From assembly GCA_963715335.1 (NCBI GenBank), contig CAVQRZ010000001.1, forward strand, positions 64,001 through 128,000: a stretch of 64,000 bases of DNA, given 5' to 3'. Positions 38,301 to 44,300 of the stretch are shown here, piece after piece (position 1 is the first letter of the stretch; every line of letters begins with the position of its first letter). This DNA comes from an uncultured delta proteobacterium (GTDB lineage Bacteria; Desulfobacterota; Desulfuromonadia; Desulfuromonadales; BM103). A program made the position numbers.

Positions 38301-41300
38301 GCCCGGCATGGCTGGCAGGATCACGGCACCTGCCCGCGAGAGACGCAACAGGTTTTCGAGATGAATCGTATTGAATGGCGTTTCTCTCGGCACCAGGATC
38401 AACGGGCGGCGCTCTTTGAGCATCACGTCAGCGGCCCGTTCCAGCAGGTTTCCGCTCAAGCCCGCGGCAATCCTGCCGGCGGTGCCCATCGAACAGGGCA
38501 TGACGATCATGGCATCGGCGGGGTTCGAACCGCTGGCAGAACCCGCCCAGAAATCATCTATATCCAGGCAATCGACAGCGATACTGGCAAAATATTCCTG
38601 CACCCGGTGGCGCTGATTTTTGTTCTCTGTCGGCCAGTCAAGTCCGATCTCATGATTCAGTACCTGGCGGCCTGCCGCAGTCATAATCAGGCTGACCCGG
38701 CATCCCGCCCGCAATAATTCGCTGACCAGGCCCAGACCGTAGACCGAACCTGAGGCGCCGGTGATGGCGACCACAAAATGCCGTATATCGTGATTGTCCG
38801 TCGACATGATTATCCCGTTCTAGACAAGTGCATCGACAAGGGTAAAAAGAAAGATTGTCACGCTGATGTAACCGTTCATGTTAAAAAAGGCCGCATCCAG
38901 GCGCGACAGATCATCAGGTCGCACCAGCAGATGTTCGTAGACCAGTAATCCGGCCACCACCATGACCCCGACAAGATAAATAACTCCCAGCCCCTTGCTG
39001 AACACCAGCAGCACCAGCAGGACCACCATCACCACGTGGAATATGCGCACAACCAGGAACGAGCGTTCGATGCCAAAGCGTGCAGGGATCGAAAAGAGCC
39101 CCTTGTCCCGATCATATTGGTAATCCTGCAGCGCATAGAAGATATCAAAACCGGCGACCCAGAAAAGCACCGCAAAACCAAGGACCATGACCGGCCAACC
39201 GACGTCACCGCGCAACGCGATCCACGCGCCAACCGGCGCAGCAGCAAGGCAAATCCCCAGGATTAGGTGGGCCATGGCGGTAAACCGCTTACAGAAGCTG
39301 TAGAGGGCCAGGAAGAAGATCGCCACCGGGGCCAGCTTCAGGCACAGCGGGTTGAGCATCCACGCGGCAAACAACAACAGCGCAAAAGCGCCAAGCACCA
39401 ACAGCCATGCTTCATGTAAACGGACTTTGCCTGCCGGGAGATGCCGTTCGGCAGTTCGAGGGTTCTCCGCATCGATGCGCGCATCAATAATGCGGTTCAA
39501 CCCCATGGCCCCGGTCCGGGCCCCGACCATGGCAAGGCAGACCCAGAAGACCTGGCCAAGCGCGGGAACACTGCCGCTTGCCAGTGAGGCGAGCACCACG
39601 CCCATCAGGGCAAAGGGGAAAGCGAAAACCGTGTGGGAGAACTTGATCATCTCCAGCAAGGTCATCAGCTTGGTTAAAAAATTATTTGTGATTGTCGTAT
39701 CCATAGTGAATTAGTCAGACAGTTTACAACGCCCCTATCTCAGGTTCAAGCAAACCCGACAGAGAGGGGAAAAAGATTGCGTGCCTTGTGCAATCAAAAA
39801 GACCGGCAACGGACTCTTGTCTAAACCATTGAAAAACAATTGAACGCTTAACCACGGAGCGGCAATATTAAAGATCAAATTCGGCCCAGACCGGGGCGTG
39901 GTCAGAAGGTTTCTGCATGGCCCGGATCTCGTAATCAATGCCTGCTGAGAGACACTGATCGACGAGGGGCGCACTGGCCAGGATCAGGTCAATTCGCAAC
40001 CCGCGCGGCGGGTCAGCCTCGAAACCGCGACTGCGATAATCGAACCAGCTGAAGCGGTCTTCCACTTCCGGATGGCAATGGCGAAAAGTATCCGTCAAGC
40101 CCCACTTGCAGAGACGTTGCAACCACGCCCGCTCTTGCGGCAGGAAACTGCATTTTCCGGTGCGCAGCCACCGCAGGGCGTTCTCCTCGCCAATGCCGAT
40201 ATCCCGATTTTCCGGGGCAACGTTCATGTCACCGACCACCAGCAACCGCTCGTCGGGATTTCGCCGTGTGGTCAGGTCGTTGAACAGGTCAGCATAAAAG
40301 CGAGCCTTGTTCGGAAATTTAATAGGATGATCTTGACTTTCACCTTGCGGAAAATAGCCATTGACGACCCGCAAGCTCCCCTTCCGCAACGGATAACTCG
40401 CGGCGATCAAACGCCTCTGTGCCCCATCACCATCACCGGCAAACCCGTACTGTGCGTCAGACGGAGTACTGCGACTCAGCAGAGCCACACCGTAATGGGT
40501 CTTCTGCCCGAACCAGAGGGCTCTGTAGCCAAGTGCTTCGATATCCGCCTGCGGAAAGTCCTGGTCCTGGACCTTGGTTTCCTGGAGGGCAATGATTTCT
40601 GGCTGGTGCTTTTCTACGACAGCGCCCAGCTGGTGTAGACGGCTGCGAATACTGTTCACATTAAAAGAGACAATTTTCATTTGATTCCCTTTTCGACATT
40701 TTTTAGTCAGATGCGTCGTTGCATAGCTCAGGGAAGAATTCCATCTGCATTGACCGGTTCTGCCGAAGAGGGCGGCAAATGCCCGAAGAGGACCAACCTG
40801 GTTTTTGCTTTACACAACCCGCCCGTTTTTCATGAAGGAACATGATATAGCCCAGGCCGTTCGAGCCTTCGACTTCTCCCATGCGTGCAAAATTAATCAT
40901 ACCTGTACGGCACAAACAAAGAAAGCCCCGGTCATAAATGGCCGGGGCTTTCAGACTGCTGACAAAGTTCAGTTTTGATGTTTAGAAGGGCAGCAGAGGG
41001 TTTATCTGTTGTCCTTGTTCATTTCTACTCTGAAATTCAAAGATAAAACCAAAGCAGAACCCGGGGGTTGCGCCCCCCGACTGCGCCTTACTCTTTTGCT
41101 GGCCCAAAAGAGTAAGCAGAAAAAGGCCTGCGCTGCGCTGGGCATGTCTGGTTCGTCAAGGCGGCAACCTCAATTCGGACCATTCTAACCGATTAAGAGT
41201 CTACACTTCCCCCGCAGGAGCCGAGGCTCTTGAGAGCCTCTCCTGTTCGTGGAGACTTGCGTTGATAGAGGTTGTTTTGGCTTTTCCCTGGTAAATCACA

Positions 41301-44300
41301 CGGCAAGGTCAGGCCCTTTGACACAGGGCCGGATCCCCATCACAGCAGGTTCTTGAAGTCACAGACATCCGGCAGAGGAGATGCCCTCCGCAAGGAGAAG
41401 GCACTTTTGCATACTTTTGTTGCCGGACAAAAGTATGGCGTCCGGCGGGACGCGACCCGCCGGTTTTGCTTTTAAGCATTTCAAGAAAAGAGAAAAGGGC
41501 AACAGATGAACCATCTGTTGCCCTAAGCTGCAAAGCCCCGGTCATAAATGACCGGGGCTTTGGAATGATGCGCGAGACGTGCTCGAAGCTAGAAGACTGC
41601 GAGTTTCGCCAGCTCCATAACATCACCAGGGATGATCCCGAGGTAGAACACACCGATGATCGCAATCACGATCGAGATGGCGACAGTGGCCGGCATGGAA
41701 ACCCAGGCAAAGTCTTCGGTCGGATCGCGGAAGTACATGTAAACCATGACCCGCAGGTAGTAGTAAAGCGACACGGCCGAGTTAAGCACGCCGATTATGG
41801 CCAGCCAGATATAACCGGCCTTGACTGCACCGGCAAAGATAAAGAACTTGCCGGCAAAACCGGCTGTGGGCGGCAGTCCCATCAGCGAAAAGAGGAAGAT
41901 CGCCATGGCAACGCCGAGGAAAGGTCGCTTGTAACCGAAACCGGAGAAACCTTCCAGCGTCAGGTTATCCTCACCCTTTTTGCCTGCCAGGACCAGGATG
42001 GCAAAAGCACCGATGTTCATGAAGGTGTAAGCCAGCATGTAGAAGAGAATACCCGAGTAGCCGATCTCATTCGCAGCAACCATACCGACCAGTGCGTAGC
42101 CGGCATGCGCTATCGAGGAGTAGGCCAGCATGCGCTTGACGTTGGTCTGGCTGATGGCGATCACATTGCCAATCACCATTGTCAGCACCGCAAGGACCCA
42201 CAACATGGCGGTCCATTCCGGTTTCAGGCTGAAGAAGCAGTATTCCATGATACGCAGAAACGCGGCAAAAGCTGCGGCCTTGGGCCCGGCGCTCATGAAA
42301 GCGGTGATCGGAGTCGGAGCACCCTCGTAGACGTCCGGTGTCCACATGTGAAAAGGCGCAGCCGCAATCTTGAAGAGGAAGCCGATCGAAAGCAGGACCA
42401 GCCCGGCAAGGGTCATCGGATTCTCTAGCAGAGAGCCGTGTGCATTGAGGTAAATGCCGATTTCCGTCAGCTTGGTAGACCCTGTGACGCCGTAGATCAG
42501 CGCCATGCCGTACAGGAGGAAGCCGGTGGAGAACGCCCCGAGCAGGAAGTATTTCAGGCCTGCTTCGTTGGACTTGACCTGGCCACGGAAGAACCCGGCC
42601 AGAACATACAGACAGATTGACATGACTTCCAGACCAAGGAAGATCGTCATCATATCGGTTCCGGAGGCCATCCACATAGCGCCTGCAGTGGCAAACAGGA
42701 TCAGCGGATAGTATTCACTGACGGGGTAACCTTCGCGCGTCAGATAATCGTCTGACATGAGGACCGTCAACCCGGCGGCGAAAAGGAAGGTGATACTGAA
42801 GAACGCGGCATAATTGTCCATCGCGACAGCATCATTGAACCCGTATTGAGGATTCCCCCAGCCAGTTACGACAAAGAATCCCGTGACCACCAGGCCGATC
42901 AGGCTGATCCAGACAGCATGCCGCGTGGTGCCACGCGGCAGGAATACATTGATCAGCAGCAGTCCCATGCCGAAGCAGCTCAGTACGAGAGACGGCAATA
43001 TGGCCGCCATATTGACGTTCTGCAAGGCAATTTGCACCAGGTTGTTATCCATTGAATGGCTCCTCGAACGCTATGAAATCTAATTTATTCGTTAACGATA
43101 ACTTTTGTCACTGATTGATCCAGGTTCTCAACCATCATGGCGATATGCTGCTTTTCTTTGACCTGGTTGATCAGGTTGTCAAGCGATGGGTTCATCTTCT
43201 CAAGGAAGGTGTTCGGGTAAAAACCGATCCAGAAGATGAACAGTACCAGCGGCAGCATAACGGCCAATTCCCGCACTGACAGGTCTTTGAGGTTTTCGTT
43301 CTTCGGATTGGTAACTTTGCCCATCATGACGCGCTGGAACATCCAGAGCATGTAAACCGCCGCCAGGATAACGCCGGTGGTCGCAAACACGGTGAAGACC
43401 CGCAGTTCACTTTCAAAAGCGCCGACCAGGATCAGAAATTCGCCAACGAAACCATTGGTTCCGGGCAATCCGATTGAAGAGAACGTCACGATCATGAAGA
43501 TCGTCGCAAACACCGGCATGACCTTGCTCAGGCCCCCGAAGTCAGCAATCAGACGGGTATGGCGGCGCTCGTAGATGAATCCGACGATGAGGAAGAGTGC
43601 GCCGGTCGAAATGCCGTGGTTGATCATCTGCAGCATGCCGCCGGACATCCCCTGCAGATTCATGGCAAAGATCCCCAGCATGACAAAACCCAGATGGGAG
43701 ACCGATGAATAGGCGACCAGTTTCTTGACGTCATCCTGCATCATGGCGACCAGCGCCCCGTAAATAATACCGATTACCGCCAACAGCGCCAAGAACGGGG
43801 TGAACTGCATCGTGGCGACCGGGAAGAGCGGGATGGCGAAACGGATAAAGCCGTAGGTTCCCATCTTCAACAGGATGGCAGCAAGGATAACCGAGCCGGC
43901 CGTCGGTGCTTCGGTGTGTGCATCGGGCAACCAGGTATGGACCGGGAACATCGGCACCTTGATGGCGAAGCTGAAGGCAAACGCTGCGAACAGCCAGGTC
44001 TGCAGGTGCGCCGGGATATCCAGCTGGGAGAAATGGGCTACGCTGAAGCCGTTTTCAAACGGCACACCGGCTTTGATCGAGAAATAGTAAACGTAGATAA
44101 TCGCAACCAGCATCAGCAGCGAACCGACCGCGGTGAAGAGGAAAAACTTGATCGCGGCATAAACCCGGTTCTTGCCGCCCCAGATACCGATCAGGAAATA
44201 CATCGGCACCAGCATCAATTCCCAGAACACGTAGAAGAGGAACAGGTCCAGTGAGATAAAGGCTCCGAGCATACCGGTTTCCAGCAGCAGCAACAGTGCC

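What a model noticed while it worked through the whole genome (the two positions that open the first line are those of the whole stretch)
40950..41590. High-copy ~520-650 bp palindromic intergenic element built from a covarying ~100-nt structured module
The genome carries about 86 loci (36.6 kb, 1.1% of the assembly) of a non-coding, ORF-less element whose canonical form is hairpin - module - 240-bp core - inverted module - hairpin (about 520 bp; about 650 bp with outer ends that finish in 14-bp inverted repeats CTCAGRYTGYTGAC). The ~100-nt end module (148 covariance-model hits in this genome) folds into three hairpins plus a pairing between the loop of hairpin 2 and the stretch 6-7 nt behind it; three sequence variants of the module in this genome and copies from other Desulfuromonadales keep these pairings by compensatory changes. 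The element is polymorphic among co-assembled strains and sits almost only at 3' ends of genes, next to termi [...]
Evidence so far: All-vs-all BLAST of intergenic DNA: one family links >80 intergenic regions; the top 14-mers of the genome (61-76 copies) all come from it. Feature map: 86 loci, commonest architecture H L core1 core2 R1 H. Filled/empty site: C15:1447-2060 and C28:1138-1750 hold a ~640-bp insertion that C41:3911-4084 lacks. 42 of 78 placed loci lie between convergent genes (10% of all intergenic regions are convergent), 2 between divergent genes; 5 more overlap small unannotated gene calls, 3 at contig ends. Module: 181 of 231 Desulfuromonadales genomes match; the exact 20-mer of hairpin 1 is in 108 stretches of public genomes, mostly Desulfuromonadales MAGs; on 60 sequences 15 of 25 pairs change on both sid [...]
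(Added by a program. Inside this text positions count along the whole contig: contig position 64,001 is position 1 of the stretch shown here. "Call 12" and the like, gene names such as g00115 and contig names such as C1 are that model's own, and its searches are not shown. The text may have been shortened before it was handed on; [...] marks where a part breaks off. The agent that wrote the report below was given it as the finding of a first reader that could run no searches.)

Follow-up and report, generated by a model that had tools for sequence, protein, structure and literature searches.

The report
Terminator-hopping repeat with folded end modules
This is one copy of a non-coding mobile DNA element, present about 80-90 times in the genome, that lands on transcription-terminator hairpins and duplicates the whole hairpin, and that carries two copies of a conserved, intricately folded 100-base module of unknown role.

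Summary
Window 40950-41531 is one of 93 BLAST loci (35.7 kb, 1.1% of the assembly) of an ORF-less repeat.

New here:
- The element is bounded by a degenerate 14-bp inverted repeat. Five filled/empty comparisons with sister genomes show that insertion duplicates an entire intrinsic-terminator stem-loop. The target duplication is about 19-31 bp and tracks hairpin size.
- The window copy sits between two copies of a 30-nt hairpin (40922-40951, 41532-41561). It is old, being present at the same site in two sister species.
- The element carries inward- and outward-facing terminator-like hairpins.
- It is a nested composite. An outer MITE is restricted to a few genera. The inner part, module-core-inverted module, flips relative to the outer ends.
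- The ~100-nt module has 145 hits in this genome and matches 36 of 41 relatives. It keeps three hairpins and two pseudoknot-like pairings by compensatory change.
- G-T and A-C cells are equally rare, so the folded strand, and RNA versus DNA, stay open.

No partner transposase was found. The end repeat resembles IS5/IS1182-type ends, and IS1182-family IS1272 is known to target stem-loops.

This scan earlier noted terminator hairpins duplicated around E. coli BIMEs (unchecked).

The parts
40922..40951 (.). Left copy of the duplicated host terminator stem-loop (target-site duplication). On the minus strand it is followed by the T-rich tract.
   Evidence: 30-nt direct repeat, 97% identical to 41532-41561. 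The same pair flanks the element in G002 and G004.
40950..40985 (+). Short ('A-type') outer end. Its first 14 nt (40950-40963) are the terminal inverted repeat.
   Evidence: Pattern hit at G000:C1:104953-104971.
40986..41016 (.). Hairpin H1. Terminator-like for transcription entering from the left.
41056..41147 (-). Left end module (L variant): hairpins P0, H3 and H2 plus two pseudoknot-like pairings. It reads outward on the minus strand.
   Evidence: nhmmer hit. Row window:41049-41152:- of alignment A1. Pair counts.
41148..41378 (.). Core of about 230 bp, hairpin-rich. Conserved among copies in this genus but replaced by other cores in other genera.
   Evidence: Folds.
41379..41467 (+). Right end module (R variant), reading outward on the plus strand. 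Its last hairpin H2 (41442-41463) is followed by a T-run.
41496..41524 (.). Hairpin H1', an inverted copy of H1. Terminator-like for transcription entering from the right.
41525..41531 (.). Remnant of the long ('B-type') outer end. The rest, including its inverted repeat, is deleted in this copy and in the G002 ortholog. The G004 copy at the same site has both outer ends complete, with the B-type end on the opposite (left) side.
41532..41561 (.). Right copy of the duplicated host terminator stem-loop.
41589..43052 (-). Flanking gene whose 3' end faces the element: a membrane subunit of the NADH:quinone oxidoreductase/Mrp type.
   Evidence: Pfam PF00361, E 5.3e-81.
39868..40680 (-). Flanking gene on the other side (endonuclease/exonuclease/phosphatase family). 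Its start faces the element.
   Evidence: Pfam PF03372, E 3.3e-30.
11437..12148 (.). Second locus of the family in the window, of the variant ~700-bp architecture.
   Evidence: C1:75437-76148. Modules at 11654-11738 (+) and 11791-11878 (-).
63654..64000 (+). Third locus of the family, cut by the end of the window.
   Evidence: C1:127654-128135. Module at 63719-63810 (-).

Best explanation
The feature is one old copy of a non-autonomous transposable element, a large composite MITE, of a Desulfuromonadales genome.

**Shown**
- The element is delimited by a degenerate 14-bp terminal inverted repeat.
- It inserts at intrinsic-terminator stem-loops.
- Insertion leaves one full copy of the stem-loop on each side. 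The target duplication is 19-31 bp and its length follows the hairpin.
- The element carries terminator-like hairpins facing inward and outward at both ends.
- Its inner part inverts relative to its outer ends.
- Its ~100-nt modules keep a fold of three hairpins plus two pseudoknot-like pairings by compensatory change. They are far better conserved than the DNA around them.

**Inferred**
- A DDE transposase of the IS5/IS1182 kind, supplied in trans, joins the two element ends at the two feet of the extruded hairpin or cruciform. Repair then copies the whole palindrome. This is the pathway drawn but not observed for IS1272.
- Because the element brings its own inward-facing terminators, the insertion costs the flanking genes little. 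Copies therefore pile up behind genes.
- The modules are an older, order-wide repeat unit that was captured in inverted pairs. They act as folded single strands, DNA somewhat more likely than RNA, bound by a still unknown mobilising or host factor.
For: **Copy number and ends:**

**Target duplication**
- The window copy is flanked by a 30-nt direct repeat of a hairpin.
- Of 30 H1-bounded copies, 9 have flanking direct repeats above the 95th percentile of mismatched-flank controls.
- At five loci (C34 ~11.8 kb, C1 55.7 kb, C33 65.8 kb, C23 115.8 kb, C14 56.5 kb) sister genomes carry one hairpin and no element where G000 has hairpin-element-hairpin.
- 15 of 33 defined termini abut a perfect stem of at least 6 bp, against 12.3% of 3000 random intergenic positions. 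For stems of at least 8 bp the figures are 11 of 33 against 3.4%.

**Gene context:** convergent sites enriched, divergent sites depleted.

**Terminator-like sites:** 6 found against 1.6 expected in the window copy. 10 found against 1.1 in a complete copy, arranged inward and outward at both ends.

**End repeat:** it matches 12-13 of the first 15-16 bases of the ends of an IS5-family IS in the same genome. It resembles IS1182-like ends in relatives.

**Precedent:** IS1272 (IS1182 family) targets stem-loops of any sequence. Its authors' model includes a hairpin-duplicating route (PMC5678879, sections read).

**Nesting and inversion:** a 142-bp minimal element exists. Inner or whole-element flips occur between orthologous copies.

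**Module fold:**

**Module conservation:** between orthologous copies the modules show 90 matches/2 mismatches and 88/1. The core shows 174/54, neighbouring intergenic DNA 174/45 and coding flank 103/9.
Against: - No transposase flanked by these ends was found in this genome. None appears among the places listed for the 233 order genomes scanned with the end pattern.
- The IS5-family IS with the most similar ends makes a 4-bp TTAA duplication, not a hairpin duplication.
- The genome richest in the element's ends (G002) has no PF13751 match at all.
- Copies are 80-94% identical to the window copy, so current activity is not shown.
- 18 of 33 termini lack a perfect stem of at least 6 bp. Bulged hairpins are not counted.
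- The C41 'empty' allele differs from the filled alleles around the site and shows no clean hairpin.
- In well-aligned helices G-T cells (11) equal A-C cells (11), so nothing tells which strand folds. The high conservation of modules could be gene conversion among about 145 copies rather than selection.
Confidence: 0.6

Rival explanations
1. The module is above all a gene for a structured RNA: a small RNA, a processing or terminator element, or a self-cleaving RNA. The repeat spreads because that RNA is useful or selfish, and the DNA-level transposon features are secondary.
For: - Two pseudoknot-like pairings and three hairpins are kept by compensatory change, with invariant unpaired bases.
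- In one reading direction the module ends in a GC hairpin plus T-run.
- The P0 loop is mostly GCAA, GCA, GCTA or GCGA on that strand.
- Modules are more conserved than coding DNA between orthologous copies.
- Head-to-tail arrays of ~505-nt units exist in another genus.
Against: - No Rfam family matches at E up to 1.
- G-T equals A-C in helices, 11 each of about 1960 cells. This is unlike RNAs, which tolerate G-U on one strand (the comparison with RNAs is my own knowledge).
- No sigma-70-like promoter is found in two copies.
- Orientation relative to neighbouring genes is mixed.
Confidence: 0.22
2. A REP/BIME-like element moved as single-stranded DNA by a HUH (RAYT or IS200/IS605-type) enzyme. 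The hairpins H1, H2 and H3 would be its recognition structures, and the hairpin duplication a by-product of insertion at hairpins on the lagging-strand template.
For: - Strict Watson-Crick covariation without strand bias fits DNA hairpins.
- H1 is a 12-bp-stem palindrome that occurs apart from the modules in other genera.
- The inverted-pair layout recalls REP doublets (own knowledge).
Against: - The copies end precisely at a terminal inverted repeat that resembles IS5/IS1182 ends. HUH elements lack terminal inverted repeats and target duplications (own knowledge).
This was not re-tested here.
Confidence: 0.12
3. A MITE derived from an IS1202-family element, the family known for long target duplications.
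For: IS1202-subgroup elements make 27-28-bp duplications (bioRxiv 10.1101/2022.12.17.520857, passages read). Some duplications here are of that size.
Against: - In that family the length is fixed per subgroup: 5-6, 16-17 or 27-28 bp.
- Here it ranges over at least 6 bp between loci and coincides with the hairpin.
- No IS1202-like gene was looked for specifically.
Confidence: 0.04
4. The modules are attC-like recombination sites of an integron or a cluster of attC sites.
For: Structure rather than sequence is conserved. There is no strand bias in wobble pairs. Same-direction arrays with ~505-bp spacing occur in G029.
Against: In those arrays the whole 505-bp unit is repeated, not different cassettes. 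By inspection the module ends do not show the attC core sites (the core-site motifs are recalled). Within this genome the modules lie in inverted pairs.
Confidence: 0.02

Closest known systems
IS1272 and other IS1182-family insertion sequences (stem-loop targeting)
   Same: The target is chosen by structure: inverted repeats of 21-85 bp with any sequence, often just downstream of genes. These are DDE elements with ~16-bp terminal repeats. The authors' model includes a branch in which the whole stem-loop is duplicated (PMC5678879, sections 21, 22, 24, 29 read).
   Different: IS1272 was seen to replace the stem-loop and leave no duplication. Here the stem-loop is kept and duplicated. No IS1182 gene with matching ends was found. 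The IS1182-like elements in relatives have other ends and no hairpin duplication.
Bacterial MITEs, e.g. Chunjie of Geobacter uraniireducens
   Same: Non-coding, with terminal inverted repeats, target duplication, many copies, intergenic, strongly folding.
   Different: Chunjie is 178-235 bp and A+T-rich, with 21-bp repeats and 9-bp duplications (PMC3184786 and PMC10969869, passages read; the original paper is not held). This element is 580-680 bp and nested. It duplicates 19-31 bp hairpins and contains an order-wide structured module.
[quoted passage not shown]
   Same: A repeat with terminator-like hairpins, biased to 3' ends of convergent genes (PMC3184786, passage read).
   Different: About 105 nt. 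No relation in sequence was tested. No hairpin-sized target duplication is mentioned in the passages read.
IS1202 family (long target duplications)
   Same: Duplications of up to 27-28 bp.
   Different: The length is fixed per subgroup and no hairpin target is reported (bioRxiv 10.1101/2022.12.17.520857, passages read). Here the length varies with the hairpin.
REP/BIME elements with RAYT transposases
   Same: High-copy extragenic palindromes, often in inverted pairs behind genes (own knowledge). An earlier scan note reports terminator duplication around BIMEs.
   Different: REPs are 20-40 nt, without terminal inverted repeats. Here the units are ~100-nt multi-hairpin modules inside a TIR-bounded element.

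Membership tests
MITE (non-autonomous TIR element) | Terminal inverted repeats at both ends | tested here: met
   A 14-bp degenerate repeat lies at the ends of aligned copies. In the window copy only the left one survives.
MITE (non-autonomous TIR element) | Target-site duplication shown by empty sites | tested here: met
   Five loci have single-hairpin empty sites in sister genomes.
MITE (non-autonomous TIR element) | No coding capacity | tested here: met
   Only short overlapping ORFs of at most 118 aa. Copies differ by 1-2-nt indels throughout. ORF products were not searched against protein libraries.
MITE (non-autonomous TIR element) | A full-length IS with the same ends | tested here: inconclusive
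   None with these ends was found. An IS5-family IS in contig C6 shares 12-13 of the first 15-16 end bases but duplicates TTAA.
IS1182-family derivative | Stem-loop (palindrome) as target | tested here: met
IS1182-family derivative | IS1182 transposase with matching ends in the same or related genomes | tested here: not met
   PF13751 full-length hits lie in genomes without the element's ends, and their ends differ.
IS1202 family derivative | Duplication of fixed length (5-6, 16-17 or 27-28 bp) | tested here: not met
   Lengths differ between loci by at least 6 bp and follow the hairpin.
Any Rfam RNA family | Covariance-model match | tested here: not met
   Best hits are far below gathering scores.
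REP/BIME with RAYT | RAYT gene flanked by the same repeat | not tested
Integron attC array | Unrelated cassettes between conserved sites | tested here: not met
   In G029 the whole ~505-bp unit repeats.
Intrinsic terminators (parts of the element and the target) | GC-rich hairpin followed by a T-run | tested here: met
   6 sites against 1.6 expected and 10 against 1.1. These are pattern matches only; function is not shown.

The most novel reading that the evidence does not exclude
The ~100-nt module is a new class of functional folded nucleic acid, with three hairpins locked by two pseudoknots. It is conserved across the order Desulfuromonadales at tens to more than a hundred copies per genome and is kept by selection even in old, immobile copies. 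It could be a structured RNA, possibly catalytic or protein-recruiting. Alternatively it could be a single-stranded DNA site for an undescribed mobilisation system that also explains the inverted pairs, the head-to-tail arrays and the hairpin-duplicating insertions.
Probability: 0.25. Interest if true: 0.9.

Novelty: new variant of a known kind. Interest (0 to 1): 0.7.

Why it matters
Three things stand out.

1. It gives natural, empty-site-verified examples of structure-directed transposition that duplicates a whole terminator hairpin. That outcome was drawn in a published model for IS1272 but not observed there. It offers a rule for why some repeats collect behind genes without harm.
2. The element replaces the separated T-tracts with its own inward-facing terminators. 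It is therefore a useful case of a near-neutral insertion strategy, and perhaps a transcriptional insulator.
3. The 100-nt module, with its two covarying pseudoknot-like pairings, is present in 36 of 41 related genomes searched and matches no RNA family on record. It is a concrete, testable candidate for a new structured RNA or single-stranded-DNA recognition element.

Practically, the element breaks assemblies and inflates apparent strain variation in Desulfuromonadales MAGs.

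Tried and rejected
- **Rfam, E up to 1, on 40500-42000:** only weak chance hits.
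- **Noisy end search:** a regex search for pairs of ends 0.3-3.5 kb apart was mostly chance, 278 hits against 108 in a shuffled genome.
- **Multi-copy ORFs in the genome:** these are strain-duplicate contigs, not insertion sequences.
- **IS1182-like elements of relatives:** different ends, short or no duplication. IS5-like relatives likewise.
- **Supplements of the Geobacter metallireducens, G. bemidjiensis and Pelobacter carbinolicus genome papers:** 0 occurrences of 10-13-mers of the module. Files 13-19 of the first paper and 13-15 of the second were not searched, and PDF alignments may not be held as continuous text.
- **Literature searches for a described equivalent:** only IS1272 and general MITE reviews turned up. 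The Chunjie paper is not held.
- **Plasmid, phage and viral-contig collections:** no match.
- **RNA evidence:** contigs of three sediment metatranscriptome studies cover the two modules at summed depths far above the neighbouring gene. A probably-DNA run shows the same profile and contigs cannot show expression, so there is no conclusion.
- **MFE-based parsing of the pseudoknots:** misleading because folds swallowed the linkers. It is replaced by anchor-based parsing.
- **H1 as a target duplication of the inner element:** rejected for this genome because the two H1 loops are reverse complements of each other.
- **Inverted versus direct relation of flanking host hairpins:** the three informative cases are direct, the others ambiguous.

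Full report
**What is at the coordinates**

Window 40950-41531 is non-coding DNA between two minus-strand genes. One is a NADH:quinone oxidoreductase/Mrp-type membrane subunit whose stop is at 41589. The other is an endonuclease/exonuclease/phosphatase-family gene whose start is at 40680.

The stretch is bracketed by a 30-nt direct repeat of a GC-rich hairpin at 40922-40951 and 41532-41561, 97% identical. An Rfam scan at E up to 1 gives nothing credible.

**The repeat family is real**

- blastn of 40900-41600 against the 43-contig, 3,303,993-base assembly gives 154 HSPs. They merge into 93 loci, 35,695 bp (1.1%), or 80 loci with a looser merge.
- 32 HSPs are near full length at 80-94% identity, on both strands.
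- Their alignment shows this order: outer end, hairpin H1, spacer, ~100-nt module, ~230-bp core, inverted module, spacer, H1', outer end.
- The outer ends are of two kinds. One is short (A). The other is long (B) and holds its own hairpin plus a T-run. A copy has one of each, and either may lie left of the core.
- All matches to the outer ends lie in the family's loci. No pair of ends encloses a gene.

**The target duplication is the whole terminator hairpin**

The DNA just outside the end repeat is a GC-rich hairpin whose sequence differs from locus to locus.

- Among 30 copies bounded by two H1 hairpins, 9 have flanking direct repeats scoring above the 95th percentile of mismatched-flank controls. 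Where loop asymmetry allows a decision, the two copies are direct, not inverted.
- I then looked for the same sites in sister genomes. At five loci G000 has hairpin-element-hairpin while one to three sister genomes have the same flanks with a single hairpin and no element. The loci are C34 ~11.8 kb, C1 55.7 kb, C33 65.8 kb, C23 115.8 kb and C14 56.5 kb.
- The empty sites are A-tract, stem-loop, T-tract, that is, bidirectional intrinsic terminators.
- Depending on whether the first bases of the end repeat are assigned to element or target, the duplications measure about 19-31 bp. They differ between loci by at least 6 bp, in step with the size of the stem-loop.
- At the C14 site G003 carries a mini-element (A end plus H1) while G004 is empty.
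- Of 33 well-defined termini, 15 abut a perfect stem of at least 6 bp, against 12.3% of 3000 random intergenic positions. For stems of at least 8 bp the figures are 11 of 33 against 3.4%. Bulged stems are missed. An earlier version of this count was faulty and is void.

**Age and rearrangement of the window copy**

- The same site is occupied in G002, in the same orientation and with the same truncated right end. It is also occupied in G004.
- In G004 the whole element lies the other way round between the same two hairpin copies, and both outer ends are complete.
- At the C34 locus G000 and G002 share the outer ends in the same orientation, but the inner part is inverted and of a different core type.
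- A 142-bp element in contig C23 consists only of B end, one H1 and A end.

Together with the free A/B orientation, this makes the element a nested composite. An outer MITE surrounds an inner unit, and that unit flips, presumably by recombination between inverted repeats (inference).

**Neutrality of insertion**

- The pattern scan finds 6 terminator-like sites in the window copy (1.6 expected) and 10 in a complete copy (1.1 expected).
- H1 and the B-end hairpin face incoming transcription at each end. The H2 hairpins of the modules face outward. The two host hairpin copies keep their outer T-tracts.
- No sigma-70-like promoter is found in either copy.
- By crude ORF calls, the 74 placed loci are 30 convergent, 37 tandem and 7 divergent. 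All gaps are 339/962/346.

So genes that lose the T-tract of their terminator meet a substitute within about 30 nt (inference).

**Which enzyme**

No partner was found.

- An IS5-family IS in contig C6 (359-aa transposase: NCBIfam transpos_IS5_4; Pfam DUF772 and DDE_Tnp_1) has ends that match the element's end repeat at 12-13 of the first 15-16 bases. It duplicates TTAA.
- IS1182-like elements in relatives have related but different ends. They occur in genomes that lack the element's ends.
- The end pattern, with up to 1 mismatch, occurs in 28 of 233 order genomes. These are concentrated in three genera of the window's family, with almost no hits to the reversed control pattern.
- In print, IS1272 of the IS1182 family targets inverted repeats of any sequence and replaces them without duplication. 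Its authors' model includes a branch that would duplicate the stem-loop (PMC5678879, sections 21, 22, 24, 29 read).
- IS1202-family elements make long but fixed duplications (bioRxiv 10.1101/2022.12.17.520857, passages), which does not fit.

I therefore favour a DDE enzyme of the IS5/IS1182 kind acting at the feet of an extruded hairpin. This step is inferred.

**The module**

*Distribution.*
- The whole element with this core is confined to the window's genus and two others. The ~90-nt module matches at about 80-92% identity in 36 of 41 related genomes (24 of 27 genera).
- An exact 18-mer of it recovers Desulfuromonadales records, among them Malonomonas rubra, Desulfuromonas and Trichloromonas MAGs. 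It also gives chance hits in GC-rich unrelated taxa. 60 of 80 fetched loci hold a true module.
- In other genera the modules flank other cores. Many fetched loci show only one detected module within a 10-kb locus. In G029 the modules lie in head-to-tail arrays of a ~505-bp non-coding unit.
- Their orientation relative to neighbouring genes is mixed. The upstream gene is on the same strand in 15 of 23 cases, the downstream gene in 16 of 28.

*Fold.*
- Read from core to end, the module has a short hairpin P0, a long A/T-rich hairpin H3 and a GC hairpin H2.
- It also has a pairing between the P0-H3 linker and the H3 loop (PK1), and one between the H3-H2 linker and the H2 loop (PK2).
- I aligned 98 distinct sequences. 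They were chosen from 129 by dropping near-duplicates, and four with a large hairpin insertion in H3 were left out. P0, H3, H2 and PK2 give 95.1% paired cells against 82.8% in shuffles. 20 of 24 pairs change on both sides. The covariation score is 0.277 against 0.073, with slid controls at most 0.083.
- By anchor-based parsing, PK1 reaches at least 4 bp in 78 of 98 sequences, against 34% with a partner from another sequence. It shows 27 different pairings.
- PK2 reaches at least 4 bp in 84 of 98, against 17.5%, with 5 pairings.
- The alignment was seeded by a fixed 18-mer in H2, which limits variation seen there.

*Strand and molecule.* In the well-aligned helices G-T cells number 11 and A-C cells 11. 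No strand is marked as the folded one, which leans toward DNA but does not decide.

*Conservation.* Between the orthologous G000 and G002 copies:

| Segment | Matches | Mismatches |
|---|---|---|
| Module L | 90 | 2 |
| Module R | 88 | 1 |
| Core | 174 | 54 |
| Adjacent intergenic DNA | 174 | 45 |
| Coding flank | 103 | 9 |

The cause is either selection or gene conversion among about 145 copies.

**RNA evidence**

Contigs from three sediment metatranscriptome studies cover the modules. So does a probably-DNA run, and contigs cannot show expression. The result is inconclusive.

**Comparison and novelty**

- The element works like a MITE and meets the MITE criteria except for a matching autonomous partner.
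- It differs from Chunjie, the described Geobacter MITE (178-235 bp, 21-bp repeats, 9-bp duplications; passages of PMC3184786 and PMC10969869).
- I found no description of this element or module in the searches named under Tried and rejected. The alignment supplements of the Geobacter-group genome papers are held only partly as text and could list related repeats.
I did not test it, but it suggests the footprint may be more general.

**Verdict**

This is a real, high-copy, non-autonomous element with a structure-directed, hairpin-sized target duplication and an unusual, order-wide, doubly knotted end module. It is a new variant of a known kind. The module's function and the mobilising enzyme remain open.

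Noticed in passing
G000 contig C6, locus L049:1312-2664 (not in the window): A single-copy IS5-family insertion sequence: 359-aa transposase, 16-bp inverted ends, TTAA duplication. Its ends resemble the repeat element's ends.
   Followed up: partly
L184 (G029:C7:135200-138200); also L185, L186: In another genus the module-bearing unit forms head-to-tail arrays of five ~505-bp non-coding units, 60-98% identical, rather than inverted pairs.
   Followed up: partly
Loci L154, L162, L167, L071; G000 copy C21:20862-21698: In some modules hairpin H3 is replaced or interrupted by a different, long perfect hairpin with a GGGGACA...TGTCCCC stem. This looks like a second small palindromic insert.
   Followed up: no
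G000 C15:1447-2060 and C28:1138-1750 versus C41:3911-4084: The strain allele without the element also lacks the flanking hairpins and differs over about 40 bp, although the flanks are 97-99% identical. It may be an imprecise excision or a replaced segment rather than a virgin site.
   Followed up: partly
L050-L053, L010 (genome G007): Elements with the same modules but another core. H1-type hairpins lie 60-130 nt outside the modules in 2 of 5 copies, and short tandem ~11-nt repeats fill the spacers.
   Followed up: no
Window 41525-41535: The truncated right outer end joins the host hairpin at a short run resembling the start of the B-end's own hairpin. This suggests a deletion between two similar terminator hairpins. 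It is shared with G002 and absent in G004.
   Followed up: no
G000 contigs C10:1-448, C14:1-151, C29:102235-102384, C31:67317-67525: Several contigs begin or end inside a copy of the element, so the repeat is one cause of assembly breaks.
   Followed up: no
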